From the NCBI GenBank assembly GCA_949283785.1, contig CASDTR010000003.1, positions 2,852-66,851 on the forward strand: 64,000 bases of DNA. Reading direction: 5' to 3'. The position numbers and the translations under genes were made by a program. The notes under the pieces are model-generated. The model saw only the letters and a program-made list of their open reading frames with translations, made no database searches and was not told where the DNA came from. Source of the DNA: an uncultured Oscillospiraceae bacterium. Its GTDB lineage: Bacteria; Bacillota; Clostridia; Oscillospirales; Acutalibacteraceae. This document shows positions 2,530 through 38,159 of the stretch, in pieces; within the stretch, counting starts at the first letter, position 1; every line of letters begins with the position of its first letter.

Positions 2530-2560
2530 AGTAATTTTATGCACAGAAAAAGGAAAAACA

Positions 2561-2596: not shown

Positions 2597-2597
2597 G

Positions 2598-10882: not shown

Positions 10883-10913
10883 AGCCCCGACTCTCGTTGA
10901 GTCGGGGCTTTTT
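10883..10913 (+). terminator. intrinsic terminator of the GH13 gene
   Basis: The stem agccccgac (10883-10891) / gtcggggct (10901-10909) is followed by ttttt. Confidence 0.75.
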
Positions 10914-13737: not shown

Positions 13738-13755
13738 AAATATTCTCCTGTTCAA

Positions 13756-15975: not shown

Positions 15976-15989
15976 TTCGCTTTCCCGTC

Positions 15990-17903: not shown

Positions 17904-19378
17904 CAGTCTACCTCAATCTTAAAACATATGGGCATGGTGTCAGTAATTTTTTCATCGGTTCTGATCGTAAGATATTTCTTTGAAAAATCATATTCTGCCT
18001 GTGTGCCGTCTCCGAGGACGGTTATGTTTTTAATAACAAAATTAAACATATCCATGCTGTGGGCAAGGGATTTGATTTTAAATTTCTTCCTGCCTGCGGG
18101 AACAAGGACAAAAGCATATATGACGCCGTTTCTGTATGTAAAACGGTAATCTTTTCGGGTGTAATGATAATTTTCCCTGAAGGAACCGTTTTTCTGAACC
18201 TTTCCCTCTCCGAACACCTTGTAGGGAGAAGTACCCCAGATGGCTTCGGCATTTTTCTTTGTCCATTTGCCCATTTCCGTGAGGATTCTCGTCTCCTCCT
18301 CACAGACAGTTCCGTCAGCCCTGGGGCCGATATTCAGAACATAGCATCCGTTTTTGGAAATGACGTCGGCCATGTTGCAGGCGATTTCCTTGGGAGATTT
18401 ATATTTATTAGTGGTACAGTATGACCATGCGTTTTTCGCCGCGGAAGTTTCGCTCTGCCATATATACGGGCTTATTCCCGGAAGCTGTCCGCGCTCCCTG
18501 TCAAAGACAGCGCAGTTATACATTACCGCGTCGGATTTGTAATAAACGCAGACTTCTTTTCCCCACTCCAGAGAACGGTTGTAGTAATAGGCAAGAAATT
18601 TTTTAAGGTACGGCCTGAACGCTTTATACGAAACCCACCAGTCAAAAAACAGCGAGGAGGGCTCATAGCGGTCAATAAGCTCACAGGAAGAGACAAGCCA
18701 GTCCTCCAGCCACTCCTTTGTAGGCTCTATGCCGTGTTCCTGCCTGAGGAGCGTGAAAAGATTGTTTCGCTTGTGAACGCCCTCACAGGGACCGTAAAAG
18801 GAACGGTATTCCTCGTGAAGCGTCTCGTTATCATAACCGACGGTCCTGCCTCCGTTCATGAACCAGAAATGCTCCGCCCTGTGGCTGGAGGCTGAAAATA
18901 TCATTGAGTTTTTTTCGCATGAGGATTTTATTTCGCCTAAAATATCCCTCTCGGGGCCCATGTTGACACTGTTCCATTCGCTCAGGGCACTGTTATACAT
19001 TTTAAAGCCGTCGTGGTGCTCTCCCACGGGCATTACAAATTTGGCTCCCGCGCTTTTTATAAGCTTTATCCAGCTGTCCGCATCGAACTTTTCTGCCCTG
19101 AACATGGGGATGAAATCACGGTAATTGAAGCTTTTTCCGTATCTCTTTCTGTGGTGCAGGTAAACGGGATTTCCTTTATAGTACATCAGGCGGCAATACC
19201 ATTCGCTGAAATAGGCGGGAACGGCATAGACTCCCCAATGTATGAAAACTCCGAACTTCGCCTCTCTGTACCAACGGGCAGCGGGATAGCGGGAGAGACT
19301 TTCCCAGTTATCCTTATATTTTCCGTTTTCTATGACCTCGTCTATTCTTACAAGATAATCTTTTATTAAACTGCTCAT
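17903..19378 (-). CDS. GH29 family alpha-L-fucosidase, cytoplasmic
   Basis: The GH29 N-terminal catalytic region is present (AKFGVFIHWGVYAVPAYFSEWY; HHDGFKMYNS). I moved the start to ATG 19378 (GGAG 8 nt upstream) rather than TTG 19399. Confidence 0.88.
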   Translation of the reverse strand: MSSLIKDYLVRIDEVIENGKYKDNWESLSRYPAARWYREAKFGVFIHWGVYAVPAYFSEWYCRLMYYKGNPVYLHHRKRYGKSFNYRDFIPMFRAEKFDADSWIKLIKSAGAKFVMPVGEHHDGFKMYNSALSEWNSVNMGPERDILGEIKSSCEKNSMIFSASSHRAEHFWFMNGGRTVGYDNETLHEEYRSFYGPCEGVHKRNNLFTLLRQEHGIEPTKEWLEDWLVSSCELIDRYEPSSLFFDWWVSYKAFRPYLKKFLAYYYNRSLEWGKEVCVYYKSDAVMYNCAVFDRERGQLPGISPYIWQSETSAAKNAWSYCTTNKYKSPKEIACNMADVISKNGCYVLNIGPRADGTVCEEETRILTEMGKWTKKNAEAIWGTSPYKVFGEGKVQKNGSFRENYHYTRKDYRFTYRNGVIYAFVLVPAGRKKFKIKSLAHSMDMFNFVIKNITVLGDGTQAEYDFSKKYLTIRTDEKITDTMPICFKIEVD

Positions 19379-19399
19379 CACACTGCTCCGAGAAATCAA

Positions 19400-21073
19400 T
19401 CATATGTCCGAAACAACATTTTCAACATTTTTAACGGTGATAAAATCCCCTTTGTTATGGACGACCTTATTATTTCTCACCGTCAGGCTTCTTGCTGATT
19501 TGGCGCTTATGCCTCCGTTTTCGGGGCTTGCAAATATATTTCCCTCAATGAGGAAATCACCGTGGACGCTGCCCTCGTTAACGGAGTTTTCAGGGAGTAT
19601 CCAGATATTTTTGCCGCTTCCGCAGGTAAGAAATTTGTTGTTCCTTATGGTTACGTCCCGCACCATTCCGCTTTCATACCAGCTTTTGGCGTCGTCGGAA
19701 AAAAGTATGCTGCTCATCTGAGTATCTGCAAAAATATTGTTTTCCACAACTACCTTGCCCCTCGTTGTAATGAGAAGCCCTCTTGTAATTATTCTCGTAA
19801 GCTCATTGCCTGCAAAATACAGGTTCGGGCAGGCTGTCACATCTTCTATGACCATGCCTTTTTTAGCGCCGTCCGCTGAATCCACCGAAAGCAAAATCGT
19901 ATATTCATCCGCAAGAGAGGATGAGATTATTTTTGCTTTGCCTTTACTTAGCATTGACTTTGTATCAATATACTCAATATCGTCGCCTGCCCTGAGGGGG
20001 TTGAAGCCGTGGGTCTGAGGATGCATGAACCTGACCTTAAGCACTCCGCCTTCTTTGCTCTTTTCTATACTTTCTATTTTAAAATGTATTCCGTGTACGT
20101 TCAGGCAGTCGTCTCCCGCTCCTTGATAAAAGCCGTCCGTTATATTGACATTGCCTCTGCACATACATATCTGCATAAAATCTGCAACGGAAGCCATAAG
20201 CCTTGCTCCTCCCTTTTCGGGAGAAAAATCAGCTTTTTCGATGTTTATGTTTTCGCAGTCCTGAGCTACAAAGGCAAGAGAATAATTAAATCTCTGGGCG
20301 ACGCTGCGCAGAGTGAGATTTTTGCACCTCTGAGCAAAAATGCCGGCGTATTTTCTCCTTACGTCAAAAAGGTAAAATCTATCGCCCTTTTTGATTTTCT
20401 TAGGCAAGGCAAAATAGGCTCTGAACAGGTGTGGGGAAAGCTCCTTTATTTTGCGGCATCCCAAAAGCGGATGATTTACCCGCTTTACACTGTCGGGTGC
20501 TGATTTTCTGATTCTGCCTATCCAATGGGCATTCAAAGCGCTGTCGGTAAAGCCTACGGTGTAATCCTTCCCTTTAAAAGCAAAGCCTTTTTCCGTTTTG
20601 ATATAATCGCTTTCCCTGTCCAAACTGAAATCAACGCAAAAAGGCATAACCCTTTCCGCTGTCAGCTCATGCATATCAGGGTTGACAGTCTTAAAAGTTA
20701 TGTCTTCAACGGTAATATTTTCACAGTCGCTTAAAGCCATATTGGTGCATTGTCCCTCAATTACAAATACGGCTCCCTCACCTTTTATATAAAGGTCATT
20801 AATGCCTTTGAGGTTCAAAGCGGCTCTGTTTTCATGAGGAATCTCCTCTTTTTTAAATTCTCCGTCCCCTACGGTGTTGGTTATGAAAAATAGCTCTTTT
20901 TCGCACTTTGAGGCGTCTATAAAATATTCGCCGTTTTCAAAAAGCAGCTCTTTTCGGCCCTTTGTATCGGCAAGGCTGCCGAAAAGCTCAGTAAGCTCTT
21001 TTTCCACTTCCCTGCCGGGAACAATGCCGAAATCGGAAGCGTAAATTTTTACGGTCTTATCGCAGTAATTCAT
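19400..21073 (-). CDS. right-handed parallel beta-helix protein, probable glycosidase (family unassigned)
   Basis: Repetitive beta-helix-type segments are present (NITVEDITF, NLTLRSV, NINIEKADF, VNITDGFY, VVVENNIF, VTIRNNKF, FLIEGNIF, LTVRNNKV). It sits inside the glycosidase operon. ATG 21073 is preferred over TTG 21082. Confidence 0.55.
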   Translation of the reverse strand: MNYCDKTVKIYASDFGIVPGREVEKELTELFGSLADTKGRKELLFENGEYFIDASKCEKELFFITNTVGDGEFKKEEIPHENRAALNLKGINDLYIKGEGAVFVIEGQCTNMALSDCENITVEDITFKTVNPDMHELTAERVMPFCVDFSLDRESDYIKTEKGFAFKGKDYTVGFTDSALNAHWIGRIRKSAPDSVKRVNHPLLGCRKIKELSPHLFRAYFALPKKIKKGDRFYLFDVRRKYAGIFAQRCKNLTLRSVAQRFNYSLAFVAQDCENINIEKADFSPEKGGARLMASVADFMQICMCRGNVNITDGFYQGAGDDCLNVHGIHFKIESIEKSKEGGVLKVRFMHPQTHGFNPLRAGDDIEYIDTKSMLSKGKAKIISSSLADEYTILLSVDSADGAKKGMVIEDVTACPNLYFAGNELTRIITRGLLITTRGKVVVENNIFADTQMSSILFSDDAKSWYESGMVRDVTIRNNKFLTCGSGKNIWILPENSVNEGSVHGDFLIEGNIFASPENGGISAKSARSLTVRNNKVVHNKGDFITVKNVENVVSDI

Positions 21074-21078
21074 AAAGC

Positions 21079-21954
21079 TCAATCCTCTACCATATTTTTG
21101 ATTTTTTCAGGCACGGTAAGATTTTTAAATCCGTAAAAGCTTTCGGCGTTTTTGCCGAAAAACAGTTCCTTTTCTTCGTCGCTGAGCTCCTTTGATCTTA
21201 AAATAAAATCAAAGCTCATTTTATATGTAATCGCGGTCATGGTTCTCGGATAATCGCTGCCCCACATGAGCTTTTCCATTCCGCAGATTTCAGCCGCTTC
21301 TTTTATAGCCTTCACAGCAGAGGGGAAGGGATAAAACTCACTGTTGAAAAGCCAGGTGATTCCGCCGCTTTCAATAAAGACGTTTTTATGCCTTGCAAGG
21401 CGTATCTGCTCCTTCCAGCCCTCGCGGGTCACCATGCCGAAATGGCCTATGGCAATTTTAAGGTCGGGCAGCTCGGCTATTATCTCATTCATGGCTCCCG
21501 TCTGGGCGTCGCCGTCGGCAAGGTCCACGGAAATATATTTTCCCTTTTCGGCAGCCTCTCTGAAAACTTCAAAATGCTTTGTAAGGTCCTTGGTTTTGAG
21601 CCTTCCCGCACAGAGTTTTATGCCGTCAAAACCCTCCAGAGTATAGGGCATACCCTCGCGGTAGAGAGAGCATACGCGGAACCTTTCGGGATACTTTGCT
21701 TTTACCTCCAAAAGGTAAGCGTCCTGATTGCCGTCGATTTCCTCCTGAGTTACGGCGCAGGCCGAAACTCCCGCGTAATCCATATTGGAGAGGAGCACCT
21801 CGGCGCTGTTTACTCCGTCTGTCATATAGGGCGGCAGCATCTGCTTTATCTCCCCGCCGAAATCACTGCGTCCGTTTTCAAGAGGTATAACCCTTCGGCC
21901 GTCCACAAGTCCGTCCTGCTTTTTCCAAAGATGAAGATGCGCATCTATAATCAA
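21079..21954 (-). CDS. amidohydrolase_2 (cog3618-like) family hydrolase, candidate sugar-acid lactonase
   Basis: It has the N-terminal metal motif IIDAHLHLW, a C-terminal WGSDYP and is 291 aa. This architecture matches L-fucono/L-galactono-1,5-lactonase-type amidohydrolases. Confidence 0.7.
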   Translation of the reverse strand: MIIDAHLHLWKKQDGLVDGRRVIPLENGRSDFGGEIKQMLPPYMTDGVNSAEVLLSNMDYAGVSACAVTQEEIDGNQDAYLLEVKAKYPERFRVCSLYREGMPYTLEGFDGIKLCAGRLKTKDLTKHFEVFREAAEKGKYISVDLADGDAQTGAMNEIIAELPDLKIAIGHFGMVTREGWKEQIRLARHKNVFIESGGITWLFNSEFYPFPSAVKAIKEAAEICGMEKLMWGSDYPRTMTAITYKMSFDFILRSKELSDEEKELFFGKNAESFYGFKNLTVPEKIKNMVED

Positions 21955-23339
21955 AGTGTAACACCGTCCTTAAAAATAGCTATCTCTCTGTATCCGTTCT
22001 TTTCGTTATTGGTTTCTTTGCCGCCTGCAACGTCAAAGACGTATCTGACAAACTCTTTCGACAAATCCGCTCCCGCAAGCATATCTCCCGCTCCGAAATC
22101 TATCCAGTGGGGCTTGTTTTCTTTAAGGAAGTTGTTGGTGGCAATCTTTATTGTGGGTACGGGCGCGCCGAGAGGAGTACCCCTGCCAGTTGTAAATAAA
22201 ATGATATGGCATCCCGAAGCGGCAAGGTTTGTGACCGCCACAATATCGTTGCCTGGGCCTTTCAGAAGGCTGAGGCCCTGCTTGACACATTTTTCGCCGA
22301 TGTCAAGGACGTCCACAACGTGAACACGTCCGCCCTTCTGAACACAGCCCAGGGATTTTTCCTCAAGGGTCGTGATTCCTCCCGCCTTGTTTCCGGGAGA
22401 GGGATTTTCATAAACGGGCTGACCGTGATCCATAAAGTATCTCTTGTAATCGTTTATAAGCTTTACGGTTTTATCGAACACCTCGCGGGAGACGCAGCGG
22501 TTCATGAGTATTGTCTCCGCTCCGAACATTTCGGGAACTTCTGACAGTACGGTGCAGCCCCCCATAGCTGTGAAAATATCGGTAAACTGACCCACCAGCG
22601 GATTTGCGGTGATTCCCGAAAAGCCGTCGCTTCCGCCGCATTTAAGACCCACTTTAAGCCGAGACGCTTTTACGGGCACTTTTTTATCCTCGGCGGCCTG
22701 AGCCTTCAGCTCTTCGATTATTCTTACGCCTTCCGCTATTTCGTCGCCGCACTCCTGCACCGAAAGAAAGCGCACTCTTTTTTCATCGTAATTCCCCAGT
22801 ACCTTTTTGAGCTCCGGGATATTGTTGTTTTCGCAGCCGAGACCCAGCACAAGCACGCCTCCCGCATTTGGATGCTTTATAAGTCCGCAGAGGATTTTCT
22901 GAGTAGTTTTGTGGTCGTCTCCCAGCTGGCTGCATCCGTAGGGGTGAGGAAATGCAAAGGCTCCCGTCTTTTCGCTGAGAATTGCCGCGGTTTTATTTAC
23001 GCAGCCCACGGTGTTTATTATCCAGATATCGTTCCTTATGCCGATTTCACCGTTTTTACGCTCATAGGCCATTATCTCGGGAGACTCCAGCGGCTTTATC
23101 CTGGGTATTTCGGGAGTATATTCATATTCGAGGATGTCGCTGAGTCCCGTTTTGAGATTATGGGAGTGTACCTGCTCGCCCTCCTCAATATCCTGAGAGG
23201 CGACGCCTATTGGAAAGCCGTACTTTATAACCCTTTCGCCCTCATTTATATGGCGAAGGGCTTTTTTGTGGCCTGTTTCAATGTTTACCGCAACATTGTC
23301 CTTTTCGTGTATTTTAATGAATCCCTTTAAATTGTCCAT
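21951..23339 (-). CDS. uxaA: UxaA-family sugar-acid dehydratase (altronate dehydratase-like)
   Basis: It has an N-terminal SAF domain (IKIHEKDNVAV...VIKYGFPIGVASQDIEEGEQVHSHNL) followed by the UxaA/GarD C-terminal body. It is 462 aa. The substrate is not proven. Confidence 0.8.
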   Translation of the reverse strand: MDNLKGFIKIHEKDNVAVNIETGHKKALRHINEGERVIKYGFPIGVASQDIEEGEQVHSHNLKTGLSDILEYEYTPEIPRIKPLESPEIMAYERKNGEIGIRNDIWIINTVGCVNKTAAILSEKTGAFAFPHPYGCSQLGDDHKTTQKILCGLIKHPNAGGVLVLGLGCENNNIPELKKVLGNYDEKRVRFLSVQECGDEIAEGVRIIEELKAQAAEDKKVPVKASRLKVGLKCGGSDGFSGITANPLVGQFTDIFTAMGGCTVLSEVPEMFGAETILMNRCVSREVFDKTVKLINDYKRYFMDHGQPVYENPSPGNKAGGITTLEEKSLGCVQKGGRVHVVDVLDIGEKCVKQGLSLLKGPGNDIVAVTNLAASGCHIILFTTGRGTPLGAPVPTIKIATNNFLKENKPHWIDFGAGDMLAGADLSKEFVRYVFDVAGGKETNNEKNGYREIAIFKDGVTL

Positions 23340-24649
23340 TCCATGGCCCTCTTCATGCCGAGAGTGTGAATTTTATCGAGACAGATTTCAACCTTTTCTT
23401 TCATATCTGAAATATCTTCTCCCCAAAGCTCACTGTTTTTGAGGATCTCGTCAACCGAAGCGTTTTTCATAAACTCCTCCACCTCGGGAAGATCCTGAGG
23501 CTTATCGGTCTTGTAGAATTCGATGAGAGCCGCCAGAGCCATTGTAAGCGAAAGGGGATATTCGCCTTTCTGCTCCTTATATTCGAGGATTGTGGGAAGC
23601 ACGCGGACAGAGAATTTGCTCACGCTGTTAAGGGCGATCGAGCGGAGCATATGCTTTATATAAGGATTGGCAAAGCGCTCCAAAACCGCGTTGGCGAAAT
23701 TCTCGTCCTCAGCGCTTCCGCCGAGAGTGGGAACTATTTCCTCAAAGAGACATTTTTTAAGGAAGCTGCCGACAACCTCGTCATTTACGCACTCACCGAC
23801 GGTTTCAAGACCCGAAAGCAGCGCTCCCGTCACCATTGAGGTGTGGCCGCCGTTGAGAATCCTTACCTTGCGCTTTTTGTAGGGAGCAACATCGTCCGTC
23901 CAGACGACGTTGAAGCCTGCTTTGCGAAGGGGAAGCTCATCCTCAAAATTGCCCTCGATCACCCAAAGGTGAAAAATCTCCGCCGTATCTAGAAGCTTAT
24001 CCTCATATCCCAGCTCCTCGCAGAGAGCCTGAGCCTCATCGGCAGGATAGCCCGTTACGATTCTGTCAACAAGAGTGTTGCAGAAGCTGTTTTCCTCAAG
24101 GAGCCATTTTTTGAAATCCTCGCCCAAATTCCACTTGTCGGCATATTTGAGCACGCACTTTTTAAGCTCGTCGCCGTTGTGGTCGATAAGCTCGCAGGAA
24201 AGGATGATGAAGCCTTTAAGCCCCGCCTTAAATCTTTCGTGAAGCAAAAGGGTAATCTTTGCGGGGAAGGATGAGGGCGGTGCGTCGGTTATTTCGCAGG
24301 AGTCGTCATAGGCGATACCCGCCTCGGTGGTATTTGAAACGATAAAGCGGAAATCGGGATCGCGCGCAAGGGCAAGATAAGCCTCAAAATCCTCATAAGG
24401 GTTTACGGCTCTCGAAACACTCCTGATTTTTGTGTGCTCACATATCTCTTTGCCGTCCTGTATTCCTCTGAGATAAAGGTTATATTCGCCCTTCTGGGCA
24501 TTGATAGTATCCGTAAGGCCCTTTGCGATAGGCTGAACTATAACAACGCTGCCGTCAAAGAGTCCCTTTTCATTGAGCTTATGTATAAAGTAATCCACAA
24601 AGCCTCTGAGGAAATTTCCCTCACCGAACTGAATTATCTTTTCTGTCAT
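23327..24649 (-). CDS. uxaB: mannitol-dehydrogenase-family tagaturonate reductase-like oxidoreductase
   Basis: Its N-terminus, IIQFGEGNFLRGFVDYFI, is typical of UxaB (altronate oxidoreductase). It is 440 aa and overlaps the uxaA-like start by 13 nt. Confidence 0.8.
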   Translation of the reverse strand: MTEKIIQFGEGNFLRGFVDYFIHKLNEKGLFDGSVVIVQPIAKGLTDTINAQKGEYNLYLRGIQDGKEICEHTKIRSVSRAVNPYEDFEAYLALARDPDFRFIVSNTTEAGIAYDDSCEITDAPPSSFPAKITLLLHERFKAGLKGFIILSCELIDHNGDELKKCVLKYADKWNLGEDFKKWLLEENSFCNTLVDRIVTGYPADEAQALCEELGYEDKLLDTAEIFHLWVIEGNFEDELPLRKAGFNVVWTDDVAPYKKRKVRILNGGHTSMVTGALLSGLETVGECVNDEVVGSFLKKCLFEEIVPTLGGSAEDENFANAVLERFANPYIKHMLRSIALNSVSKFSVRVLPTILEYKEQKGEYPLSLTMALAALIEFYKTDKPQDLPEVEEFMKNASVDEILKNSELWGEDISDMKEKVEICLDKIHTLGMKRAMEWTI

Positions 24650-24660
24650 TTTCCGTCACC

Positions 24661-25677
24661 TCAGCCTATTTTTACAAGGAGCTTTGCAAGGTCTCCCTTG
24701 TTGTTTGCAAGAGCCTTGAAGGCTTCCACGGCGTTATCCATTTCATAGACGCCGCTTACCATTTTCAGCACGTCAACCTTGCCCGCCGCCACCATGTCGA
24801 TAAGGGCAAGGAAATCACTGCCGTAGGAATTGCGGCTGCCGAAAACGTTGAGCTCCTTCTTTAAAAGAATTGAATGGCAGAAGGTGGTATCCTTTTTGCC
24901 GTTTCCTATGAGAATGATATTTGCGCCGAAGGCTGCCTGCTCAATGCAGGAAAGGAAGGTTACGGGAAGTCCGCAGGCCTCAACGCAAACGTCAAAGCCG
25001 TTTCCGTCGGTAAACTCGGCGCTCTTTTCGGAGAGATTTTCTTTGCCCGTATTTATAACCATATCCGCTCCGTACTCTTTTGCAAGGGCAAGGCGGTTAT
25101 CGAGAAGGTCCGCTATAGCAACCTTTGCACCCTTTTGTTTTGCGGAAATGAGGGCAAAAAGGCCTATGGGCCCCGAACCCATAATAAGGACGTTGTCCCC
25201 TTCCTTTACCTCGGCTCTGGAAAGGGCGTGATATCCGATTGAGAAAGGTTCTATGAGGGCAAGCTCCTTTGCCGAAAGCCCCTTGCCGCGATAAATTCTC
25301 TCAATGGGCATTGCAACATATTCTGCGAAGCTGCCGTCCCTCTGAACGCCCATGGTGCGGTTATCGGTGCAGGCGTTTACAAGGCCTCTCTTGCAGGAGT
25401 AGCAGGTTCCGCAGTTAAAATACGGGTTAGCTGTTACAATATCGCCCACTTTAAGTCCCCTGTCGTTTTCGCCTATCTGCGCGATTTCGGCGCTGAACTC
25501 ATGGCCGGGGATTCTGGGGTATGTGGTAAAGGGCTGATTGCCCGTAAAGCTTGCCACGTCTGCGCCGCAGATTCCGCAATAAAGTATTTTAAGAAGGGCC
25601 TCTCCCTCTTTTACCTCGGGCATTTCCGCCTCTCTGATTTCGATCTGACCCGGTTCAATAATCTGTACTGTTTTCAT
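24661..25677 (-). CDS. zinc-dependent MDR dehydrogenase (L-galactonate 5-dehydrogenase / sorbitol dehydrogenase class)
   Basis: It has the catalytic zinc motif GICGADV...GHE, the structural Cys cluster CGTCYSCKRGLVNAC, and the Rossmann motif GSGPIGL. The segment GNQPFTTYPRIPGHE resembles what I recall of E. coli LgoD. Confidence 0.75.
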   Translation of the reverse strand: MKTVQIIEPGQIEIREAEMPEVKEGEALLKILYCGICGADVASFTGNQPFTTYPRIPGHEFSAEIAQIGENDRGLKVGDIVTANPYFNCGTCYSCKRGLVNACTDNRTMGVQRDGSFAEYVAMPIERIYRGKGLSAKELALIEPFSIGYHALSRAEVKEGDNVLIMGSGPIGLFALISAKQKGAKVAIADLLDNRLALAKEYGADMVINTGKENLSEKSAEFTDGNGFDVCVEACGLPVTFLSCIEQAAFGANIILIGNGKKDTTFCHSILLKKELNVFGSRNSYGSDFLALIDMVAAGKVDVLKMVSGVYEMDNAVEAFKALANNKGDLAKLLVKIG

Positions 25678-26882
25678 TATTTATCCATCTCCATATAATT
25701 TTTGTTCCAGACAACGGCCGTTTTAAGGGGCGCCGCCTTTGAATATATTTTGTTTTCGTATGCGTCAATGGGGTCGGCGATAAACTCGTCCTTGTCGATA
25801 AGCTCCACTATTTCGTCAAAGCGGCTTTCGCTGAGGATTTCTATTGCCTTTTCCATATGTGCCTGAGTAAAGTTGATTGAGGCGAAAATCACATGGTTCT
25901 CAAATCCGAAGGGCATTGTGTCGAAGGTTATCTTCGGACCCAGAGAAAAACTGTTGTATATTCCGTTGCAGCCGAGAACCTTTCGCTCAAAGGCCACTCG
26001 GTGCTCAACGTTCGTGCCGCTTACGCCTACAAAAACGGTAGCTCTTCCGCCGAGCTTTTTAATTATATTCTCAGCCGTCTCCTCTTCGCTCATGGAATCG
26101 GTGCAGAGATAATCGGCCTTGACCACTTCCTCGGCAAATTTCACCTTAGGCGCCTCTTCAGAGCTTCTGCCCACAAAGAGGATTTTCGCCTTTTCATGGT
26201 TTCGTCTTATCTGGTCGCCTATGAAAAGTCCCGTTGTGCCGAGACCGAAAATCACAACTCTGTCAAAGGTGCTCTCCCTTGCGTACTCCATCGCCTCGGC
26301 TACGCTGCATTTTCTCTTGGCCATTTCCACTCGGAAATTCTGCGCCATACCTATATCCTCCATGCGCTCGTGCTGGAACACGGCGCAGGCGTAAGGGTCG
26401 GAGAACACAAGCTTTTTAGCAAGGGAAAGGGGAAGCTTTTCGAGTCCCTCATATTTTTCGGGAAAGTGCAGCAGCATCTGAGGGTTGAAATAGTTTTTGT
26501 CACAAAAGAGGCCGTCGGCGCCGTCGCAGCCGTACTCAAAATATGTCTCATCCTCCGTGTAGCGGGTGGGGTCCCAGCTGTCGCCGCCCCTTATGAGGAC
26601 AATGGCAAATCTGTTTTCCGAAGGAACCCACACTACGCCCTCATGGCCGTTTATGAGCCTTTTTTCACCCTCGGGGAATTTGGCGTCAAGGTTTCCCGCT
26701 CTGCCCATTTTCATAAGCTCAAAATCAGTGCCGCAGAAGCCGTTAAACACGGGGACCGCTTCAACTCCCTCAAGCTTTTCCTCGCCTCTGAGCCTCTGAC
26801 GGGGAGGATTGATGAGATTTACCTCTCCGTATTTTAAAGGCTCAGCCTCGCTGTTTTGAAAATATGTACCCATTGTTTTCAT
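25677..26882 (-). CDS. atypical MDR-superfamily dehydrogenase (glucose-1-dehydrogenase-like), candidate aldose 1-dehydrogenase
   Basis: It has GFCGTDFE ... INGHEGVVWV (MDR catalytic-zinc ligand pattern) and the Rossmann segment IFGLGTTGLFIG. It is 401 aa and lacks the structural-zinc Cys cluster. Confidence 0.55.
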   Translation of the reverse strand: MKTMGTYFQNSEAEPLKYGEVNLINPPRQRLRGEEKLEGVEAVPVFNGFCGTDFELMKMGRAGNLDAKFPEGEKRLINGHEGVVWVPSENRFAIVLIRGGDSWDPTRYTEDETYFEYGCDGADGLFCDKNYFNPQMLLHFPEKYEGLEKLPLSLAKKLVFSDPYACAVFQHERMEDIGMAQNFRVEMAKRKCSVAEAMEYARESTFDRVVIFGLGTTGLFIGDQIRRNHEKAKILFVGRSSEEAPKVKFAEEVVKADYLCTDSMSEEETAENIIKKLGGRATVFVGVSGTNVEHRVAFERKVLGCNGIYNSFSLGPKITFDTMPFGFENHVIFASINFTQAHMEKAIEILSESRFDEIVELIDKDEFIADPIDAYENKIYSKAAPLKTAVVWNKNYMEMDK

Positions 26883-26883
26883 T

Positions 26884-28182
26884 TTACCGTTCTCTCCTCG
26901 TCTTTTTTATAAGATAACCGCAGCCGCCCTCAAAGGGAACCGTAAGGCTGCCGCCGTCGGTTTTAAATCTTCCAGCGAAGGCGCCGCCTCCTACGGGAAT
27001 GACCTCAGCCTCGTCCCAGCCTATATTATAAGTGCGGCTGCACTTTTTATCGGAATAGGCAAACAGAGTATCTCTGAGCCACACGGCAGGCAGGCAGAAA
27101 GTGCCTTTTTCCTTTAAGATCTCGTTATCCTTTGTTATCTTTTCATCTTTTATATACGACTTTACATCTTGAGAAAAATGCGCCGTCCTGTTTGAAAACA
27201 GACCCGTAACTCTTTTTCTTTCAAAAGAATTAAGATAAAAGTAAGGCACGTTCACAAGGGCAAATTCCTTTAAAAGCTGCTTTTCCCAGTTTTCCTTTCC
27301 GAAAATATCCTCACCGTGGATATTGCCGTAAAACAGCTTTTCAAGGCCCATATCCCACTGAAGGCCCTTTGTAAGCCTGCCTCCCGCCAAAAGCGACGGC
27401 GGATACCTGAGAAAATCTTTTTGAGTCATCCTGAGATTCCAAACGGCAGGAATGTAACCTATAATGTCGCTTTTTCCCCACTGCGAACGCAAACCGAAGG
27501 CCCTCTCACGGTAGATAAATTCGGAAGTTATATCGACGCCCCGTTCCGCAAAATATTCTATCATTCTGCGCCTGTATTTTTTCTCTCGTCTTATCGAAAC
27601 TCCTTTTCCGTAATTTACGAAAAATGCGTCGGCGTGAAGGGTTCCGATTTCGTCAAAGGGCAAAAGGGAAAGAAGCCTGTCCGCTCTTCTTTGAAAATAT
27701 CCGCTCTCATATTCCCTGCTGAAAAGCACCTGGTAAGCCTTTCGCGAATTCCAGACTCCCGTGACCTTTGGCTCTCCCTTAAAATTTTTAACTATGAGAC
27801 CGTTTTTAATGTATTCCTCCCAAAGGCCGCTCTCCTCGTAGGCGTCGGAAAAGTTTACATGAAGGGAAACCACCGTGTGATACTTTTTCGCTTCCCTTAT
27901 AAGCCAAATAAGCTTCTCCCTCGCCTCCTCGGCCGTTTCGGTTCCTGCGGCAAATCGGTTTACTTCAAAAAACTCGGGATACCTGTCGTCGTGGCCCAAG
28001 TACTGCCAACCGACAAGATAGATTATTTTAGGCGCTCCCGCCGTAATAATATCGGTCCTCTTTATGATTTCAAGAATCTCATCAAAGGTGTTTATGACCT
28101 TTGAGCCGCCTTTGTTATCGGGAACCGCAACACCAATTTTCATCATCATCGTGCGGCTGTAATCGTAATTAAACTTCTTCAT
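26884..28182 (-). CDS. uncharacterised 432-aa putative glycoside hydrolase (GH101/GH129-like TIM barrel suspected)
   Basis: The segment KIIYLVGWQYLGHDDRYPEFFEVN followed by VSLHVNFSDAY is reminiscent of endo-alpha-N-acetylgalactosaminidase-type barrels. It sits in the operon with 1-9 nt junctions and has no signal peptide. Confidence 0.4.
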   Translation of the reverse strand: MKKFNYDYSRTMMMKIGVAVPDNKGGSKVINTFDEILEIIKRTDIITAGAPKIIYLVGWQYLGHDDRYPEFFEVNRFAAGTETAEEAREKLIWLIREAKKYHTVVSLHVNFSDAYEESGLWEEYIKNGLIVKNFKGEPKVTGVWNSRKAYQVLFSREYESGYFQRRADRLLSLLPFDEIGTLHADAFFVNYGKGVSIRREKKYRRRMIEYFAERGVDITSEFIYRERAFGLRSQWGKSDIIGYIPAVWNLRMTQKDFLRYPPSLLAGGRLTKGLQWDMGLEKLFYGNIHGEDIFGKENWEKQLLKEFALVNVPYFYLNSFERKRVTGLFSNRTAHFSQDVKSYIKDEKITKDNEILKEKGTFCLPAVWLRDTLFAYSDKKCSRTYNIGWDEAEVIPVGGGAFAGRFKTDGGSLTVPFEGGCGYLIKKTRRER

Positions 28183-28191
28183 TATAACCTC

Positions 28192-29247
28192 TTAAAATTC
28201 AACGTGATGTACTTCAGCCTCGCCGTTTGCTGCGATATCTATTACCGTTCCTCCCAGCATATCGAGATCAATATAGCAGTTGTAAGAGCTCTTCATAACA
28301 TAGCAGAGACCTACGCCCTTATATTCTCCGTAAAAATTATTTATGTGGTCATGGCCGGCAAATATATGCGTTCCGCCGTTGGCCTTAAATACATCGAAAA
28401 AGCCCGAGTCGGTTTCGGATATGGTAGGCTCCTCATTCTTCTCCCCGAACTCATAGTAGGTTTCGTCGAGCTCCTTAAATTCGGGAAGGGCTATGTGCAT
28501 GAACGCCATGTTTTTTACCGCAGCGCCCTCTTTTTCCGCAATTCCGTTCACTGCCCATTGATACCATTTGATCTGCTTTTCGTTTATTGTGCCGTATCCT
28601 TCTCCTATGGGCTCTCCGTTATCGAAGAGGAAAAGGGAATACACTGCTTTGCCGTCCTTTTCCAAACTTATTATGTAGTTGCCCGCTCCGTTAAGGCCGG
28701 AAGGACCGTACTGAAAGAGACAGTACTCGCCGGCAAGGTAAATATCGCAGAGCTTTGCTTTATCAGCCCTGCCCTCCATATCGTGATTGCCGAAAACGGG
28801 AGCCCACGGGATCTCAAAGGAATCCATAAAATCGACAAACTTCTGTGTGGCAATGTCGTTCCACTTTGTGAGAACCTGGTCGCCCGTGACGATGATAAGG
28901 TCGGGATTTTCACGTTTTATCATGTGCGAAAGGCGTATTCTTCCAAGGCCGTCAAGTATGTAATTTGTACCGATTGCAGCGCCGAACGTTGCATGATTTC
29001 GAAGATGCACATCAGTTATGACAAGGGCCTTAAAATTATCGCCCTTCATTTCAAGATTCTCGACAAATCTTTCGTCAAAGGCCGTGTCCTCGCTCCAGTC
29101 ATATCCCTTTGCTTTGCCTTTCTGCTCATTAGCGGCAACTGCATAAAAGACAATGTTACAGCTTACGGCAATGACGGTAAAAATGACAATCGGGGCAATA
29201 TAAATTCTAAACCCGGCCGATGTAAAAAATCTTTTCGTAACGGACAC
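28192..29247 (-). CDS. membrane-anchored calcineurin-like metallophosphoesterase (copy 2, first gene of the operon)
   Basis: It has an N-terminal TM segment (IYIAPIVIFTVIAVSCNIVFYAV) and the motifs ITDVH, VTGD, GNHD, GHDH. The start is uncertain: the only in-frame ATG/GTG/TTG is GTG 29247, which directly abuts AAGAGGA. Confidence 0.8.
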   Translation of the reverse strand: MSVTKRFFTSAGFRIYIAPIVIFTVIAVSCNIVFYAVAANEQKGKAKGYDWSEDTAFDERFVENLEMKGDNFKALVITDVHLRNHATFGAAIGTNYILDGLGRIRLSHMIKRENPDLIIVTGDQVLTKWNDIATQKFVDFMDSFEIPWAPVFGNHDMEGRADKAKLCDIYLAGEYCLFQYGPSGLNGAGNYIISLEKDGKAVYSLFLFDNGEPIGEGYGTINEKQIKWYQWAVNGIAEKEGAAVKNMAFMHIALPEFKELDETYYEFGEKNEEPTISETDSGFFDVFKANGGTHIFAGHDHINNFYGEYKGVGLCYVMKSSYNCYIDLDMLGGTVIDIAANGEAEVHHVEF

Positions 29248-29380: not shown

Positions 29381-29409
29381 TTGACAATATTTTATTCATA
29401 TTATATAAT
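29381..29409 (+). promoter_or_regulatory. consensus sigma-A promoter of the AraC-family regulator
   Basis: TTGACA (29381-29386), 17 nt, then TATAAT (29404-29409). Confidence 0.65.
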
Positions 29410-29482
29410 CGTTGCGTAAAAAATAGTTTTGAAAATCGTCCAATTTTTTTAGAAATCCTATCATGAAAAAGAGTTGATTTTT

Positions 29483-30331
29483 ATGAAGTGCAGCGAAAAA
29501 GGCGTACTCAATAAATCAGACGTTTATTTCTTCTCACCTTCTCCCAAAGCCAGAACATATCTGTTTTACCCTCTTTCAATGGGCCATTTTTTCTGCGTAG
29601 ACGGATATCATCTCATCAGAGAGCGGTACGACAGTTTTCTTGTCACATATATTATCGAAGGAACCTTCAACGTATATCTCAACGGCGAAAAGGTGGCAGC
29701 TCCTGCCGGCTCAACGGTAATACTAAACTGCTATGAACCCCACGAATACGACACCGATTCCTTTTTTGAATCCATATGGCTGCACTTTGACGGTCCCGGA
29801 GCTCTTGAGCTGTACGAGTACATAACATCAAACGCCGGAAACATCATAAACTGCGCAAATCCTAAAGCGGTCAAAAAATCCATGAAGAATCTTTTTCAAA
29901 ATATAGGCGGTAAAAGAACCGCTTCTGAAAGCGCCATGTCATCGGAAATCTATTCATTACTGTGCGAGCTGCTCAACGTTACCGACACAAACATCAGGAA
30001 GAACGTTGCAAACGAAAAGAGCGTTGCAGAAGCTCAAAAATACATAAGTGAAAATCTGGGCGATCATCTGACGGTAGCCTCAATTGCCAAACAGGTACAC
30101 ATGAGCGTCTCACATTTTTCCCGCGTATTCAAGCAGCAGACAGGGTATTCCCCTTACGACTATGTTTTGGTAACAAGGCTCAACGTTGCGAAAAACTGTC
30201 TGAGAGAGACAAATATGAGCATCTCCGAAATAGCCTACAAAACAGGATTTAACAGTGAATCGAATTTTATATTTTTCTTCACATCAAATACGGGAATCTC
30301 TCCCGGAAAATTCAGAAAGCTCAACTTCTGA
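29483..30331 (+). CDS. AraC-family transcriptional regulator (cupin sensor + HTH)
   Basis: The C-terminal AraC double HTH is present (SIAKQVHMSVSHFSRVFKQQTGYSPYDYV...ISEIAYKTGFNSESNFIFFF). It is divergent from the 13-gene operon. ATG 29483 is preferred to TTG 29474. Confidence 0.88.
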   Translation: MKCSEKGVLNKSDVYFFSPSPKARTYLFYPLSMGHFFCVDGYHLIRERYDSFLVTYIIEGTFNVYLNGEKVAAPAGSTVILNCYEPHEYDTDSFFESIWLHFDGPGALELYEYITSNAGNIINCANPKAVKKSMKNLFQNIGGKRTASESAMSSEIYSLLCELLNVTDTNIRKNVANEKSVAEAQKYISENLGDHLTVASIAKQVHMSVSHFSRVFKQQTGYSPYDYVLVTRLNVAKNCLRETNMSISEIAYKTGFNSESNFIFFFTSNTGISPGKFRKLNF

Positions 30332-30337
30332 TTATAT

Positions 30338-30369
30338 GCGCCCCGTAAAGGAACTCTTTACGGGGCGCC
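30338..30369 (+). other. 13-bp perfect stem-loop between the araC-like gene and GH35 (no U-tract)
   Basis: gcgccccgtaaag-gaact-ctttacggggcgc. It is followed by cgcaataaaaac, so it is not a canonical intrinsic terminator. Confidence 0.5.
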
Positions 30370-30401
30370 GCAATAAAAACATATTCCGAAAGGAGCTCCA
30401 C

Positions 30402-38142: not shown

Positions 38143-38159
38143 TTCTCTTCCTCTTTTCT

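What the first reader, a model, noticed from the sequence alone, without database searches (positions are those of the whole stretch)
21079..26882. uxaB-uxaA without uxaC, joined to a lactonase and two MDR dehydrogenases: candidate L-galactose-to-KDG oxidative pathway inside a fucosidase-type operon
SEEN: five consecutive minus-strand genes with overlapping or nearly abutting junctions.
- a 401-aa glucose-dehydrogenase-like MDR (GFCGTDFE...NGHEG)
- a 338-aa Zn-ADH (GICGADV...GNQPFTTYPRIPGHE)
- a 440-aa UxaB-like reductase (IIQFGEGNFLRGFVDYFI)
- a 462-aa UxaA-like dehydratase (SAF domain)
- a 291-aa amidohydrolase_2 protein (IIDAHLHLW...WGSDYP)
No uronate isomerase (uxaC) is present anywhere in the window. 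The module lies between GH95/GH29 genes and other glycosidase-like genes.

KNOWN (from memory): the Bacteroides vulgatus L-galactose pathway (Bvu0219/0220/0222, Raushel lab) has three steps before UxaB/UxaA. An L-galactose dehydrogenase acts first. An amidohydrolase-superfamily L-galactono-1,5-lactonase follows. A Zn-dependent L-galactonate 5-dehydrogenase then produces D-tagaturonate, which UxaB and UxaA convert to 2-keto-3-deoxygluconate. E. coli LgoD is the same MDR type. Some GH95 enzymes are alpha-L-galactosidases rather than fucosidases.

INFERENCE: this module supplies tagaturonate by oxidising a released L-sugar rather than by isomerising galacturonate. That would make the operon a self-contained system that imports, trims and oxidises L-galactose-bearing (or related) glycans in a Gram-positive organism. 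An alternative is a non-phosphorylative L-fucose route (fucose dehydrogenase, fuconolactonase, UxaA-family fuconate dehydratase), with the UxaB-like enzyme repurposed.
Basis: partly seen in the sequence, partly recalled or inferred. Interest (0 to 1): 0.72.

Follow-up and report, generated by a model that had tools for sequence, protein, structure and literature searches.

The report
Probable L-galactose breakdown cassette, gut Clostridia
Five adjacent genes in an uncultured gut Oscillospiraceae bacterium most likely convert the rare plant sugar L-galactose into a standard central metabolite (KDG), using a first enzyme from a protein family that no database has yet named.

Summary
Five tightly packed minus-strand genes (21079-26882) encode a 401-aa divergent MDR, a 338-aa Zn-MDR, UxaB, UxaA and an Amidohydro_2 protein. 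They lie inside a 13-gene glycosidase/transporter operon (10956-29247).

UxaB and UxaA are clear orthologues of the E. coli enzymes (45% and 50% identity). The 338-aa MDR groups with LgoD/RspB, not with threonine dehydrogenase. The 401-aa protein's only detectable relatives are archaeal aldose 1-dehydrogenases. The amidohydrolase is closest in fold to cog3618 lactonases. No uxaC, kdgK or eda occurs in the window or within 10 kb of the module in 80 related species.

The cassette is conserved. Of 64 informative loci, 50 carry all five genes and 12 carry only MDR401-MDR338-amidohydrolase. GH29 is the joint commonest neighbour.

This logic is already known from Phocaeicola vulgatus and Luteolibacter. 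Here the first enzyme belongs to an isolated, unannotated family rather than the aldo-keto reductases.

Two corrections apply. The system is not self-contained, because KDG kinase and aldolase are absent. The glycosidase setting is also not conserved. Substrate identity remains inferred.

The parts
25677..26882 (-). MDR401: divergent Zn-MDR, predicted NAD(P)+-dependent L-galactose (aldose) 1-dehydrogenase. It is a member of an unannotated family.
   Evidence: Pfam gives only Glu_dehyd_C at 23 bits, below the 34.9 cutoff, and NCBIfam gives nothing. A family profile against PDB hits only archaeal glucose dehydrogenases (2cd9 at E=8e-8, 2b5w at 2e-5). Foldseek's top hits are the same enzymes. C50, H80 and E81 (the Zn ligands), T52 and the motif G213-x-G215-x-x-G218 are invariant. 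An exhaustive phmmer scan of 1.84e9 representatives returned only its own cluster plus three more distant full-length clusters (two at 38-39% identity, one shorter at 30%).
24661..25677 (-). MDR338: Zn-MDR of the LgoD/RspB subgroup, predicted NAD+-dependent L-galactonate 5-dehydrogenase that produces D-tagaturonate.
   Evidence: It is 33% identical (181 bits) to E. coli LgoD and 32% (184 bits) to RspB. In an NJ tree it groups with LgoD+RspB at 76% bootstrap. It shares the motif GNQPF..YPR..GHE with LgoD. The catalytic residues C37/H59/E60 and the structural-Zn cysteines C89/C92/C95/C103 are present in the sequence.
23327..24649 (-). UxaB, tagaturonate reductase (D-tagaturonate to D-altronate).
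   Evidence: It scores 567 bits on NCBIfam NF002969, above the cutoff of 359. It is 45% identical to E. coli UxaB over the full length.
21951..23339 (-). UxaA, altronate dehydratase (D-altronate to 2-keto-3-deoxy-D-gluconate).
   Evidence: It has the SAF, GD_AH_second and GD_AH_C domains. It is 50% identical to E. coli UxaA over the full length. On the GarD equivalog it scores only 224 against a cutoff of 731.
21079..21954 (-). Amidohydro_2 protein, predicted L-galactono-1,5-lactonase (cog3618-like).
   Evidence: Pfam PF04909 gives 115 bits. A family profile against PDB hits 4i6k at 1e-8 and 2ffi at 2e-4. The AF2 model has pLDDT 82. Foldseek's top hits are 4i6k, 6uvz, 2ffi, the L-fucono-1,5-lactonase 4do7/4dlf and LigI. 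D4, H6, H8, H171 and D234 are invariant.
10956..29247 (-). Whole 13-gene operon: Metallophos, GH101-like, the five-gene cassette, GH110-like, GH29, DUF5696, GH95, MFS_2/GPH transporter, Metallophos.
   Evidence: Pfam annotation supports each assignment. All junctions are tight. The only strong hairpin, at 10883-10909, follows the last gene, and there is no strong internal terminator.
29474..30331 (+). Divergent AraC-family regulator, the probable activator of the operon.
   Evidence: It has AraC_binding and HTH_18 domains. A 12/12 sigma-70 promoter lies at 29381-29409. A divergent AraC gene also accompanies the cassette in L058 and L094-96. Luteolibacter LguR is analogous (PMC12632266).
13756..15975 (-). 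GH95 (alpha-L-fucosidase / alpha-L-galactosidase family), a candidate releaser of L-Gal.
   Evidence: Pfam gives the GH95 catalytic domain at 396 bits. The sequence reads T-V-N-I-N at the Thr370/His419 site. That site is not a reliable specificity marker (PMC8245568).
17903..19399 (-). GH29 alpha-L-fucosidase-family enzyme.
   Evidence: Pfam Alpha_L_fucos gives 296 bits. This family is the joint most frequent immediate neighbour of the cassette across species.

Best explanation
The five genes form an oxidative L-galactose catabolic cassette.

Proposed route:
- Free L-galactose is released in the cytoplasm from imported plant oligosaccharides by GH95/GH29-type enzymes.
- The 401-aa MDR oxidises it at C1 to L-galactono-1,5-lactone.
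- The Amidohydro_2 lactonase opens the lactone to L-galactonate.
- The 338-aa LgoD-like MDR oxidises C5 to give D-tagaturonate.
- UxaB reduces this to D-altronate.
- UxaA dehydrates it to KDG.
- KDG kinase and KDPG aldolase, encoded elsewhere, finish the pathway.

The MDR338/UxaB pair therefore works as a redox epimerase that replaces uronate isomerase as the source of tagaturonate.

What is shown and what is inferred:
- Shown by sequence: UxaB and UxaA orthology, the family placement of the other three proteins, the conservation of the cassette, and the absence of uxaC nearby.
- Inferred: the identity of the sugar, the order of the first three steps, and cofactor use. NADP+ is suggested for MDR401 by an invariant R239-S240 after the second beta-strand of the Rossmann fold. 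NAD+ is suggested for MDR338 by an Asp at the equivalent site.
For: - UxaB scores above the curated cutoff (567 vs 359) and is 45% identical to E. coli UxaB. UxaA is 50% identical to its E. coli counterpart.
- MDR338 clusters with LgoD and RspB (76% bootstrap, 0% with Tdh) and shares LgoD's GNQPF..YPR..GHE motif.
- E. coli LgoD shows the same sub-threshold NCBIfam pattern as MDR338.
- MDR401's only detectable relatives are aldose 1-dehydrogenases, and the catalytic Cys-His-Glu are invariant.
- The amidohydrolase's nearest folds are cog3618 lactonases, including L-fucono-1,5-lactonase.
- Of 64 informative loci, 50 keep all five genes in order and 12 keep only MDR401-MDR338-AH2. The shorter form matches the three-gene upper pathway reported for P. 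vulgatus.
- No UxaC, KdgK or Eda is found within +-10 kb in 80 species.
- GH29 or GH95 lies within 10 kb in 15-16 of 80 loci, and GH29 is the joint top immediate neighbour. A prevalent species has the compact form GH29-cassette-DUF5696 with AraC and MFS_2.
- Luteolibacter's proven L-galactose cluster has the same logic: a divergent AraC-type activator, a sugar dehydrogenase, UxaA- and UxaB-type enzymes and an L-galactonate dehydrogenase. It has no uxaC, and its KDG kinase is encoded elsewhere (PMC12632266).
- L-Gal occurs in corn arabinoxylan side chains that are degraded by GH95+GH31+GH43 (PMC4491172, PMC7176698). These families recur next to the cassette.
Against: - There is no biochemical or expression evidence.
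- MDR338 is equidistant from LgoD (L-galactonate) and RspB, so its substrate is not fixed by homology.
- MDR401 is only remotely related to aldose dehydrogenases (16% identity, TM 0.4-0.5, model pLDDT 66). It fails the Pfam Glu_dehyd_C cutoff, and its sister clusters sit in unrelated contexts.
- The lactonase fails the fuconolactonase equivalog model (25 vs 400 bits).
- The known L-galactose dehydrogenases belong to a different family, so step 1 has no orthology support.
- The GH95 Thr marker is uninformative.
- Most GH29 enzymes release L-fucose, not L-galactose.
- I could not compare directly with BVU_0219/0220/0222.
Confidence: 0.62

Rival explanations
1. The enzymes act in the same order but on another L-fuco-configured sugar, chiefly L-fucose. 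Either MDR401 and the lactonase make L-fuconate and UxaA acts as an L-fuconate dehydratase, or the whole cassette processes 6-deoxy intermediates to a 2-keto-3,6-dideoxy acid.
For: GH29 is the joint commonest neighbour. L-fucose is far more abundant than L-galactose in gut glycans. The nearest characterised lactonase fold includes L-fucono-1,5-lactonase.
Against: This reading gives no role to MDR338 and UxaB unless both accept 6-deoxy substrates. UxaA and UxaB are 50% and 45% identical to the canonical E. coli enzymes. No L-KDF aldolase, KDF 4-dehydrogenase or diketo-hydrolase is present in the cassette or among recurrent neighbours (pathway requirements from PMC11199699). The lactonase scores 25 bits against a 400-bit cutoff on the fuconolactonase equivalog.
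Confidence: 0.12
2. The cassette is an oxidative cyclitol (inositol-type) ring-opening route, as in Thermotoga maritima. Two successive dehydrogenations by MDR401 and MDR338 give a diketo-cyclitol. The amidohydrolase hydrolyses it to a keto-aldonate that enters as D-tagaturonate.
For: IolM is the top NCBIfam hit of MDR338 (236 bits). The MDR401 sister cluster P0124 lies beside a DHQ-synthase-like cyclase. The sister cluster P0128 lies in an MDR-hydrolase-MDR triad. The C-C hydrolase LigY is among the amidohydrolase's fold neighbours.
Against: The IolM score is below its cutoff (450) and is non-specific, because E. coli LgoD itself scores 193 on that model. MDR338 clusters with LgoD/RspB. MDR401's only relatives are aldose 1-dehydrogenases. 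There is no IolG-, IolO- or IolN-type gene among the neighbours. The neighbours are glycosidases of plant glycans.
Confidence: 0.05
3. The cassette is a UxaC-independent redox bypass for D-galacturonate. MDR401 reduces D-galacturonate to L-galactonate with NADPH, as fungal GAR1 does. MDR338 then re-oxidises L-galactonate to D-tagaturonate.
For: uxaC is absent next to uxaB/uxaA in all 80 species. MDR401 has an Arg-Ser signature compatible with NADP(H). MDR enzymes commonly reduce aldehydes.
Against: No pectinolytic or hexuronate-transport genes occur among 112 immediate neighbours. The route would not need a lactonase, yet the lactonase is kept even in the minimal three-gene form. It would be a costly three-step replacement for a cofactor-free isomerase.
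Confidence: 0.05
4. The three upstream enzymes act on an unidentified substrate unrelated to tagaturonate, and their adjacency to uxaB/uxaA is only a shared-regulon effect.
For: In 12-14 species the triad occurs without uxaB/uxaA. MDR401 function is unproven.
Against: In 50 of 64 loci uxaB-uxaA are inserted between MDR338 and the amidohydrolase with overlapping junctions. This argues for a single pathway. A triad-only arrangement is what is expected when uxaBA reside in a hexuronate operon, as reported for P. vulgatus.
Confidence: 0.1

Closest known systems
Phocaeicola (Bacteroides) vulgatus L-galactose pathway, BVU_0219/0220/0222 feeding UxaB/UxaA (Hobbs et al. 2014; cited in PMC12632266)
   Same: The chemical logic is the same: L-Gal 1-dehydrogenase, then an amidohydrolase-superfamily lactonase, then a Zn-MDR L-galactonate 5-dehydrogenase, then D-tagaturonate, UxaB and UxaA. 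Both hosts are gut anaerobes. The three-gene upper module mirrors the triad-only variant seen in 12-14 species here.
   Different: In P. vulgatus step 1 is a BVU_0219/plant-GalDH-type enzyme, an aldo-keto reductase from general knowledge. Here it is an isolated MDR family with no Pfam or NCBIfam model. The lactonase here fails the fuconolactonase-type equivalog model. The host is a Gram-positive Oscillospirales bacterium. uxaB/uxaA are inserted inside the module. I could not obtain the BVU sequences for a direct comparison.
Luteolibacter sp. LG18 lguRABCDE dual L-glucose/L-galactose cluster (PMC12632266)
   Same: It has a divergent AraC-type activator. It encodes a sugar 1-dehydrogenase, a UxaA-type dehydratase, a UxaB-type reductase and an L-galactonate dehydrogenase in one cluster. 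It has no uxaC, and its KDG kinase is encoded elsewhere.
   Different: LguA groups with the known L-Gal dehydrogenases, not with MDR401. The lgu cluster has no lactonase but includes a KDPG aldolase. An extra epimerase extends that pathway to L-glucose. The organism is an aerobic soil verrucomicrobium, and the cluster is not embedded in glycosidase genes.
E. coli L-galactonate pathway, LgoD (YjjN) + UxaB + UxaA
   Same: The lower three steps are the same, and the enzymes are homologous (33%, 45% and 50% identity).
   Different: E. coli starts from imported L-galactonate (LgoT) and has no sugar dehydrogenase or lactonase. Its genes are dispersed, and it also has uxaC.
Archaeal MDR glucose/aldose 1-dehydrogenases (Sulfolobus 2cd9, Haloferax 2b5w, Thermoplasma 3wid)
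   Same: These are the only detectable relatives of MDR401. They share the CGTD...GHE catalytic zinc motif, and a Rossmann GxGxxG motif is present.
   Different: Identity is about 12-18%. MDR401 fails the Pfam Glu_dehyd_C cutoff. It has a highly conserved insert (residues ~96-130) in place of the structural-zinc lobe. It is bacterial and restricted to Oscillospirales.

Membership tests
Tagaturonate reductase UxaB (NCBIfam NF002969; mannitol dehydrogenase family) | Score above the curated family cutoff, and full-length similarity to E. coli UxaB rather than to fructuronate reductase UxuB | tested here: met
   It scores 567 bits against a cutoff of 359. The fructuronate reductase model gives only 106 bits against 603. 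It is 45% identical to E. coli UxaB over 464 aligned columns.
Altronate dehydratase UxaA (SAF + GD_AH_second + GD_AH_C) | Three-domain architecture, and closer to UxaA than to galactarate dehydratase GarD | tested here: met
   All three Pfam domains are present. It is 50% identical to E. coli UxaA end to end. The GarD equivalog gives 224 bits against a cutoff of 731. A ~22-aa deletion in the SAF domain is noted.
LgoD-type L-galactonate 5-dehydrogenase (Zn-MDR) | Catalytic Zn ligands (Cys/His/Glu) and the four-Cys structural zinc site | tested here: met
   C37, H59 and E60, and C89/C92/C95/C103, are read directly from the translation and the alignment.
LgoD-type L-galactonate 5-dehydrogenase (Zn-MDR) | Phylogenetic grouping specifically with LgoD rather than with other polyol or aldonate MDRs | tested here: inconclusive
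   The MDR338+LgoD+RspB clade has 76% bootstrap, and grouping with Tdh has 0%. Within the clade, LgoD as sister scores 43% and RspB 36%. NCBIfam has no LgoD-specific model. BVU_0222 was not available.
LgoD-type L-galactonate 5-dehydrogenase (Zn-MDR) | NAD+-dependent oxidation of L-galactonate to D-tagaturonate | not testable with these tools
   This needs an enzyme assay.
Archaeal-type glucose/aldose 1-dehydrogenase (Pfam Glu_dehyd_C PF16912, MDR) | Pfam gathering score reached | tested here: not met
   The score is 23.3 bits against a cutoff of 34.9. A few orthologues carry a precomputed PF16912 hit.
Archaeal-type glucose/aldose 1-dehydrogenase (Pfam Glu_dehyd_C PF16912, MDR) | Catalytic CGTD...GHE zinc motif, a Rossmann GxGxxG motif, and nearest solved structures being glucose dehydrogenases | tested here: met
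   C50, T52, H80, E81 and G213/G215/G218 are invariant. Profile hits are 2cd9 at 8e-8 and 2b5w at 2e-5 only. The Foldseek top five are glucose dehydrogenases, though with TM only 0.41-0.50 from a model of pLDDT 66.
Known L-galactose dehydrogenases (BVU_0219 / plant GalDH / LguA cluster) | Homology to that enzyme family (aldo-keto reductase fold) | tested here: not met
   No protein in the cassette or operon has an aldo-keto reductase domain. MDR401 is an MDR. That the known enzymes form one cluster is taken from PMC12632266. Their AKR membership is from general knowledge.
cog3618 lactonases of the amidohydrolase superfamily (LigI, L-fucono-1,5-lactonase) | Amidohydro_2 TIM-barrel with an N-terminal HxH, a later His, and the strand-8 Asp | tested here: met
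   PF04909 gives 115 bits. D4, H6, H8, H171 and D234 are invariant in 23 sequences. Foldseek's top hits are 4i6k, 2ffi, 4do7/4dlf and LigI. Mapping of these residues onto LigI His31/His33/His180/Asp248 is from memory.
cog3618 lactonases of the amidohydrolase superfamily (LigI, L-fucono-1,5-lactonase) | Equivalog-level match to L-fucono-1,5-lactonase (NF052480) | tested here: not met
   The score is 25 bits against a cutoff of 400, over the C-terminal 60 residues only. The family profile against 4dlf gives E=0.25.
Oxidative L-galactose to KDG pathway (system level) | Sugar 1-dehydrogenase, L-galactonate 5-dehydrogenase, UxaB and UxaA co-localised, with no need for UxaC | tested here: met
   Gene content is met at family level. 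No UxaC is found in the window or in 80 loci. The arrangement is conserved in 50 of 64 loci.
Oxidative L-galactose to KDG pathway (system level) | KDG kinase and KDPG aldolase available in the genome | not testable with these tools
   They are absent from the window and from +-10 kb in 80 species. Whole genomes could not be searched.
Thermotoga-type inositol pathway (IolG/IolM/IolN/IolO) | IolM equivalog score, and presence of IolG- and IolO-type genes | tested here: not met
   IolM gives 236 bits against a cutoff of 450, and E. coli LgoD gives 193 on the same model. No Gfo/Idh/MocA or xylose-isomerase-like epimerase appears among neighbours.
Non-phosphorylative L-fucose pathway | L-KDF aldolase, or L-KDF 4-dehydrogenase (SDR) plus a diketo-hydrolase, downstream of the dehydratase | tested here: not met
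   None is present in the operon or among recurrent neighbours. The requirement is taken from PMC11199699.

The most novel reading that the evidence does not exclude
MDR401 founds a new bacterial enzyme family: an L-galactose-specific aldose 1-dehydrogenase related only distantly to archaeal glucose dehydrogenases. It is confined to Oscillospirales and currently annotated everywhere as 'hypothetical protein'. Together with GH29/GH95, DUF5696 and an MFS_2 importer, it would define the first L-galactose-glycan utilisation system in Gram-positive bacteria. That system would be present in hundreds of abundant, uncultured ruminant and human gut species, and would explain how they use the L-Gal caps of cereal arabinoxylan, xyloglucan or RG-II.
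Probability: 0.5. Interest if true: 0.62.

Novelty: new variant of a known kind. Interest (0 to 1): 0.55.

Why it matters
L-galactose caps the most recalcitrant side chains of cereal arabinoxylan, some xyloglucans and RG-II. Its bacterial catabolism has so far been shown only in one Bacteroidota species and one Verrucomicrobiota species.

If this reading is right, several things follow. An orphan protein family found in at least 500 species-level genomes of Acutalibacteraceae/Oscillospiraceae would gain a function. These bacteria are dominant and mostly uncultured fibre degraders of ruminant and human guts. The cassette would also become a genomic marker for L-Gal use in Firmicutes. It would add a non-orthologous replacement for the first pathway step. 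It would also suggest testable roles for the co-located DUF5696, GH110-like and GH101-like proteins. The practical relevance is to corn-fibre and bran valorisation and to prebiotic design.

Tried and rejected
1. GH95 specificity marker. The window's GH95 has Thr, the L-galactosidase type, at the Thr370/His419 site. I rejected this as evidence because XacAfc95 and Blon_2335 also have Thr yet are fucosidases (PMC8245568).

2. IolM as a clue to an inositol route. I rejected this because E. coli LgoD gives the same sub-threshold pattern.

3. Pairwise similarity to decide between LgoD and RspB. The two are equidistant and the tree is unresolved within the clade.

4. Primary papers. Hobbs 2013/2014 and Rodionova 2013 are not held in the library, so the BVU_0219-0222 and IolN families could not be checked directly.

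5. Source names for the exact proteins. There are none.

6. MDR401 structure prediction. The model is only moderate (pLDDT 66, with the catalytic lobe 96-130 unmodelled). It therefore cannot be used for substrate-pocket analysis.

7. Sister-cluster contexts of MDR401. They are suggestive of cyclitol or other chemistry, but at 38-39% identity they do not transfer.

8. Rfam and tRNA scans. No regulatory RNA lies near the operon.

9. Identity of PDB 6uvz as the bifidobacterial fuconolactonase. This could not be confirmed.

Full report
**Observation**

- 25677-26882 (401 aa)
- 24661-25677 (338 aa)
- 23327-24649 (440 aa)
- 21951-23339 (462 aa)
- 21079-21954 (291 aa)

The junctions are -1, +11, -13 and -4 nt. 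They sit inside a longer, equally compact minus-strand operon, 29247 to 10956. Its gene order is:
- a membrane-anchored Metallophos phosphoesterase
- a GH101-like protein
- the five genes
- a GH110-like beta-helix protein
- GH29
- DUF5696
- GH95
- an MFS_2/GPH transporter
- a second Metallophos

An AraC-family regulator is transcribed divergently from a perfect sigma-70 promoter and is followed by a GH35. A GH31 and another beta-helix protein lie further on. The only strong hairpin, at 10883-10909, follows the last gene. The rest of the window is housekeeping. tblastn with E. coli UxaC, KdgK and Eda finds nothing in the 64 kb.

**What the five proteins are**

UxaB. The 440-aa protein passes the curated tagaturonate-reductase model (567 bits against a cutoff of 359; the fructuronate reductase model gives only 106 bits). 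It is 45% identical to E. coli UxaB.

UxaA. The 462-aa protein has the SAF/GD_AH architecture. It is 50% identical to E. coli UxaA end to end and is far below the GarD cutoff.

MDR338. The 338-aa protein is a complete Zn-MDR with both zinc sites.
- It is 33% identical to E. coli LgoD and 32% identical to RspB.
- In a neighbour-joining tree with eight E. coli MDR paralogues, it groups with LgoD+RspB in 76% of bootstraps and never with threonine dehydrogenase.
- It shares LgoD's GNQPF..YPR..GHE signature.
- Its top NCBIfam hit, IolM, is uninformative, because E. coli LgoD shows the same pattern of sub-threshold scores and no LgoD model exists.

MDR401. The 401-aa protein is the unusual one.
- It has no NCBIfam hit and only a sub-threshold Pfam Glu_dehyd_C hit.
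- Every named homologue is called 'hypothetical protein'.
- An exhaustive HMMER scan of 1.84 billion representative proteins returns only its own cluster, two sister clusters at 38-39% identity, a shorter one at 30%, and fragments.
- A profile of the family hits only archaeal glucose 1-dehydrogenases in the PDB (2cd9 at E=8e-8, 2b5w at 2e-5). Foldseek ranks the same enzymes first, although the model is only moderate (pLDDT 66; TM 0.41-0.50).
- The catalytic Cys50/His80/Glu81 and the GxGxxG motif are invariant.

Amidohydrolase. The 291-aa protein is an Amidohydro_2 member.
- Its invariant residues are D4, H6, H8, H171 and D234.
- Its profile hits LigI-like proteins.
- Its good model (pLDDT 82) is closest to 4i6k, 2ffi, the Burkholderia L-fucono-1,5-lactonase and LigI.
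- It fails the fuconolactonase equivalog model.

**Comparative genomics**

At least 500 GTDB species representatives encode an MDR401 relative. Nearly all are uncultured Acutalibacteraceae, Oscillospiraceae or Ca. Fimenecus from ruminant and human guts. The window itself is 95-96% identical to uncultured Oscillospiraceae such as UMGS263.

Conservation of the module among the 64 loci with enough downstream sequence:
- 50 keep MDR401-MDR338-UxaB-UxaA-amidohydrolase in that order.
- 12 keep only MDR401-MDR338-amidohydrolase.
- Of the remaining two, L054 is an ORF-calling artefact: a tblastn search found all five genes there. The single real exception, L076, still has MDR401 beside two other Amidohydro_2 paralogues.

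None of the 80 loci has UxaC, KdgK or Eda within 10 kb.

Flanking genes are otherwise highly variable. GH29 is the joint most frequent immediate neighbour. GH29 or GH95 lies within 10 kb in 15-16 of 80 loci, and the other recurrent neighbours are GH31, GH43-like, BD-FAE esterase, GH16, GH78, GH5 and DUF2804. By my rough estimate, chance placement in a ~2.5 Mb genome with a handful of such genes would give a few per cent, so 15-16 of 80 looks several-fold enriched. This is inference, not a computed statistic.

A prevalent species carries a compact locus: Metallophos-MFS_2, a divergent AraC, then GH29-cassette-DUF5696. A second lineage (L058) repeats the window's arrangement with GH110-like, DUF5696 and GH95 at 50-56% identity.

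**Mechanism**

The simplest pathway that uses every gene is:
- L-galactose to L-galactono-1,5-lactone (MDR401)
- lactone to L-galactonate (amidohydrolase)
- L-galactonate to D-tagaturonate (MDR338)
- D-tagaturonate to D-altronate (UxaB)
- D-altronate to KDG (UxaA)

L-galactonate is the only aldonate whose 5-oxidation gives the UxaB substrate directly.
- L-gulonate would need UxuB/UxuA.
- L-gluconate would need a 4-epimerase, as in Luteolibacter (PMC12632266).

The scheme matches two characterised systems. One is the P. vulgatus pathway. The other is the Luteolibacter lgu cluster, which has a divergent AraC-type activator, a sugar dehydrogenase, UxaA- and UxaB-type enzymes and an L-galactonate dehydrogenase. 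It has no uxaC, and its KDG kinase is encoded elsewhere.

Likely sources of L-Gal are the alpha-L-Gal caps of corn glucuronoarabinoxylan, which need GH95+GH31+GH43 (PMC4491172, PMC7176698), and L-Gal-containing xyloglucan or RG-II. The window's GH95, GH29, GH35 and GH31 fit these substrates.

**Rivals**

- L-fucose. It is favoured by the GH29 linkage. However, it leaves MDR338 and UxaB without a role and lacks the required downstream enzymes.
- Thermotoga-type cyclitol route. It was suggested by the IolM hit and by the sister-cluster contexts. It is undermined and by the glycosidase neighbourhood.
- NADPH-dependent galacturonate-to-L-galactonate bypass of UxaC. It is not excluded. It makes the lactonase superfluous and has no pectin context.

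**What remains uncertain**

Substrate identity is inferred. MDR338 is not resolved as sister to LgoD rather than RspB. MDR401's link to aldose dehydrogenases is remote. The GH95 Thr marker is uninformative. The BVU proteins and whole genomes could not be examined.

**Verdict**

Two corrections apply: the system is not self-contained, and its glycosidase setting is lineage-specific.

This is a new variant of a known kind of pathway. The first step is carried out by an isolated, unannotated MDR family, and the lactonase is a remote member of the cog3618 lactonase-like clade. The cassette is widespread in uncultured Gram-positive gut fibre degraders.

Confidence is about 0.62 in L-galactose as the substrate. 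My estimate is roughly 0.8 for the more general statement that the cassette runs sugar 1-dehydrogenase, lactonase, aldonate 5-dehydrogenase, UxaB and UxaA.

Noticed in passing
window 28192-29247 (-) and 10956-12008 (-); L094 1-954: Two Metallophos (calcineurin-like) phosphoesterases bracket the operon. The first, at 28192-29247, has a hydrophobic N-terminal segment that looks like a membrane anchor; the N-terminus of the second was not examined. A Metallophos + MFS_2 pair also precedes the compact cassette locus of a prevalent species. The role of a phosphoesterase in a glycan-utilisation operon is unexplained; one possibility is a phosphorylated or phosphodiester-linked glycan.
   Followed up: partly
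window 15990-17903 (-); L094 10879-12795; L045 15778-16878: DUF5696 follows the cassette directly in several lineages (window relatives, L058, L094-96). DUF2804 follows it on the same strand in 6-8 other species. Both are of unknown function and are candidates for new glycosidases or accessory enzymes of the pathway.
   Followed up: partly
L088 8001-9224; L089 6259-9230: The only distant full-length relatives of MDR401 sit in very different contexts. P0124 (38%) lies next to PfkB, a DHQ-synthase-like cyclase, NTP_transferase, CDP-OH_P_transferase and B12-radical-SAM genes. P0128 (39%) lies in a Zn-MDR - Cyclase(PF04199) - MDR409 triad among URO-D-type methyltransferases and OMPdecase/RraA+SIS genes. 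The recurrence of an MDR-hydrolase-MDR triad with a different hydrolase fold is unexplained.
   Followed up: partly
L076 6398-14030: This is the one species in which MDR401 lacks MDR338, UxaB, UxaA and the usual amidohydrolase. It sits instead beside two other Amidohydro_2 paralogues, an HTH/HD regulator, a GH39-like protein and a BD-FAE esterase.
   Followed up: partly
L005 12234-13504: In one metagenome contig carrying the identical MDR401 (ERZ16268195), uxaB is split into 287-aa and 107-aa ORFs. This is either a frameshift (pseudogene) or an assembly error.
   Followed up: no
window 1106-2674: A phage-type integrase with an HTH domain (1106-2500, +) lies next to the window's only tRNA, tRNA-Arg(ACG) at 2598-2674 (-). 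This may be the edge of an integrated element.
   Followed up: no
window 26884-28182 (-) and 19400-21082 (-): A 432-aa protein matches the GH101 catalytic domain only weakly (40 bits). A 560-aa protein has a GH110-type GLAA-B barrel plus a beta-helix. Both flank the cassette directly, and no signal peptide was noticed on either (not formally tested). Their substrates are unknown.
   Followed up: no
window 21951-23339 (-): The UxaA orthologue lacks about 22 residues of the N-terminal SAF domain relative to E. coli UxaA. The family median length is ~457 aa, so the shorter form appears to be conserved.
   Followed up: no
window 30255-32522 (+), 33220-35622 (-), 35902-38163 (-): GH35, GH31 and a 753-aa beta-helix protein lie just beyond the AraC gene. 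Together with GH95 and GH29, this is the enzyme set needed to strip Fuc/L-Gal-Gal-Xyl side chains of xyloglucan or the complex side chains of corn arabinoxylan. The mechanically listed GH35 ORF overlaps the AraC gene, and gene calls in related contigs use a start further downstream (728 aa).
   Followed up: partly
window 25677-26882 (-), residues ~96-130: The most strongly conserved stretch of MDR401 (IRGGDSxDPTRYTEDETYFEYGCDGADGLFCD) replaces the structural-zinc lobe of canonical MDRs. AlphaFold2 cannot model it (pLDDT 31-50). It is likely the substrate-binding lobe that defines the family.
   Followed up: partly
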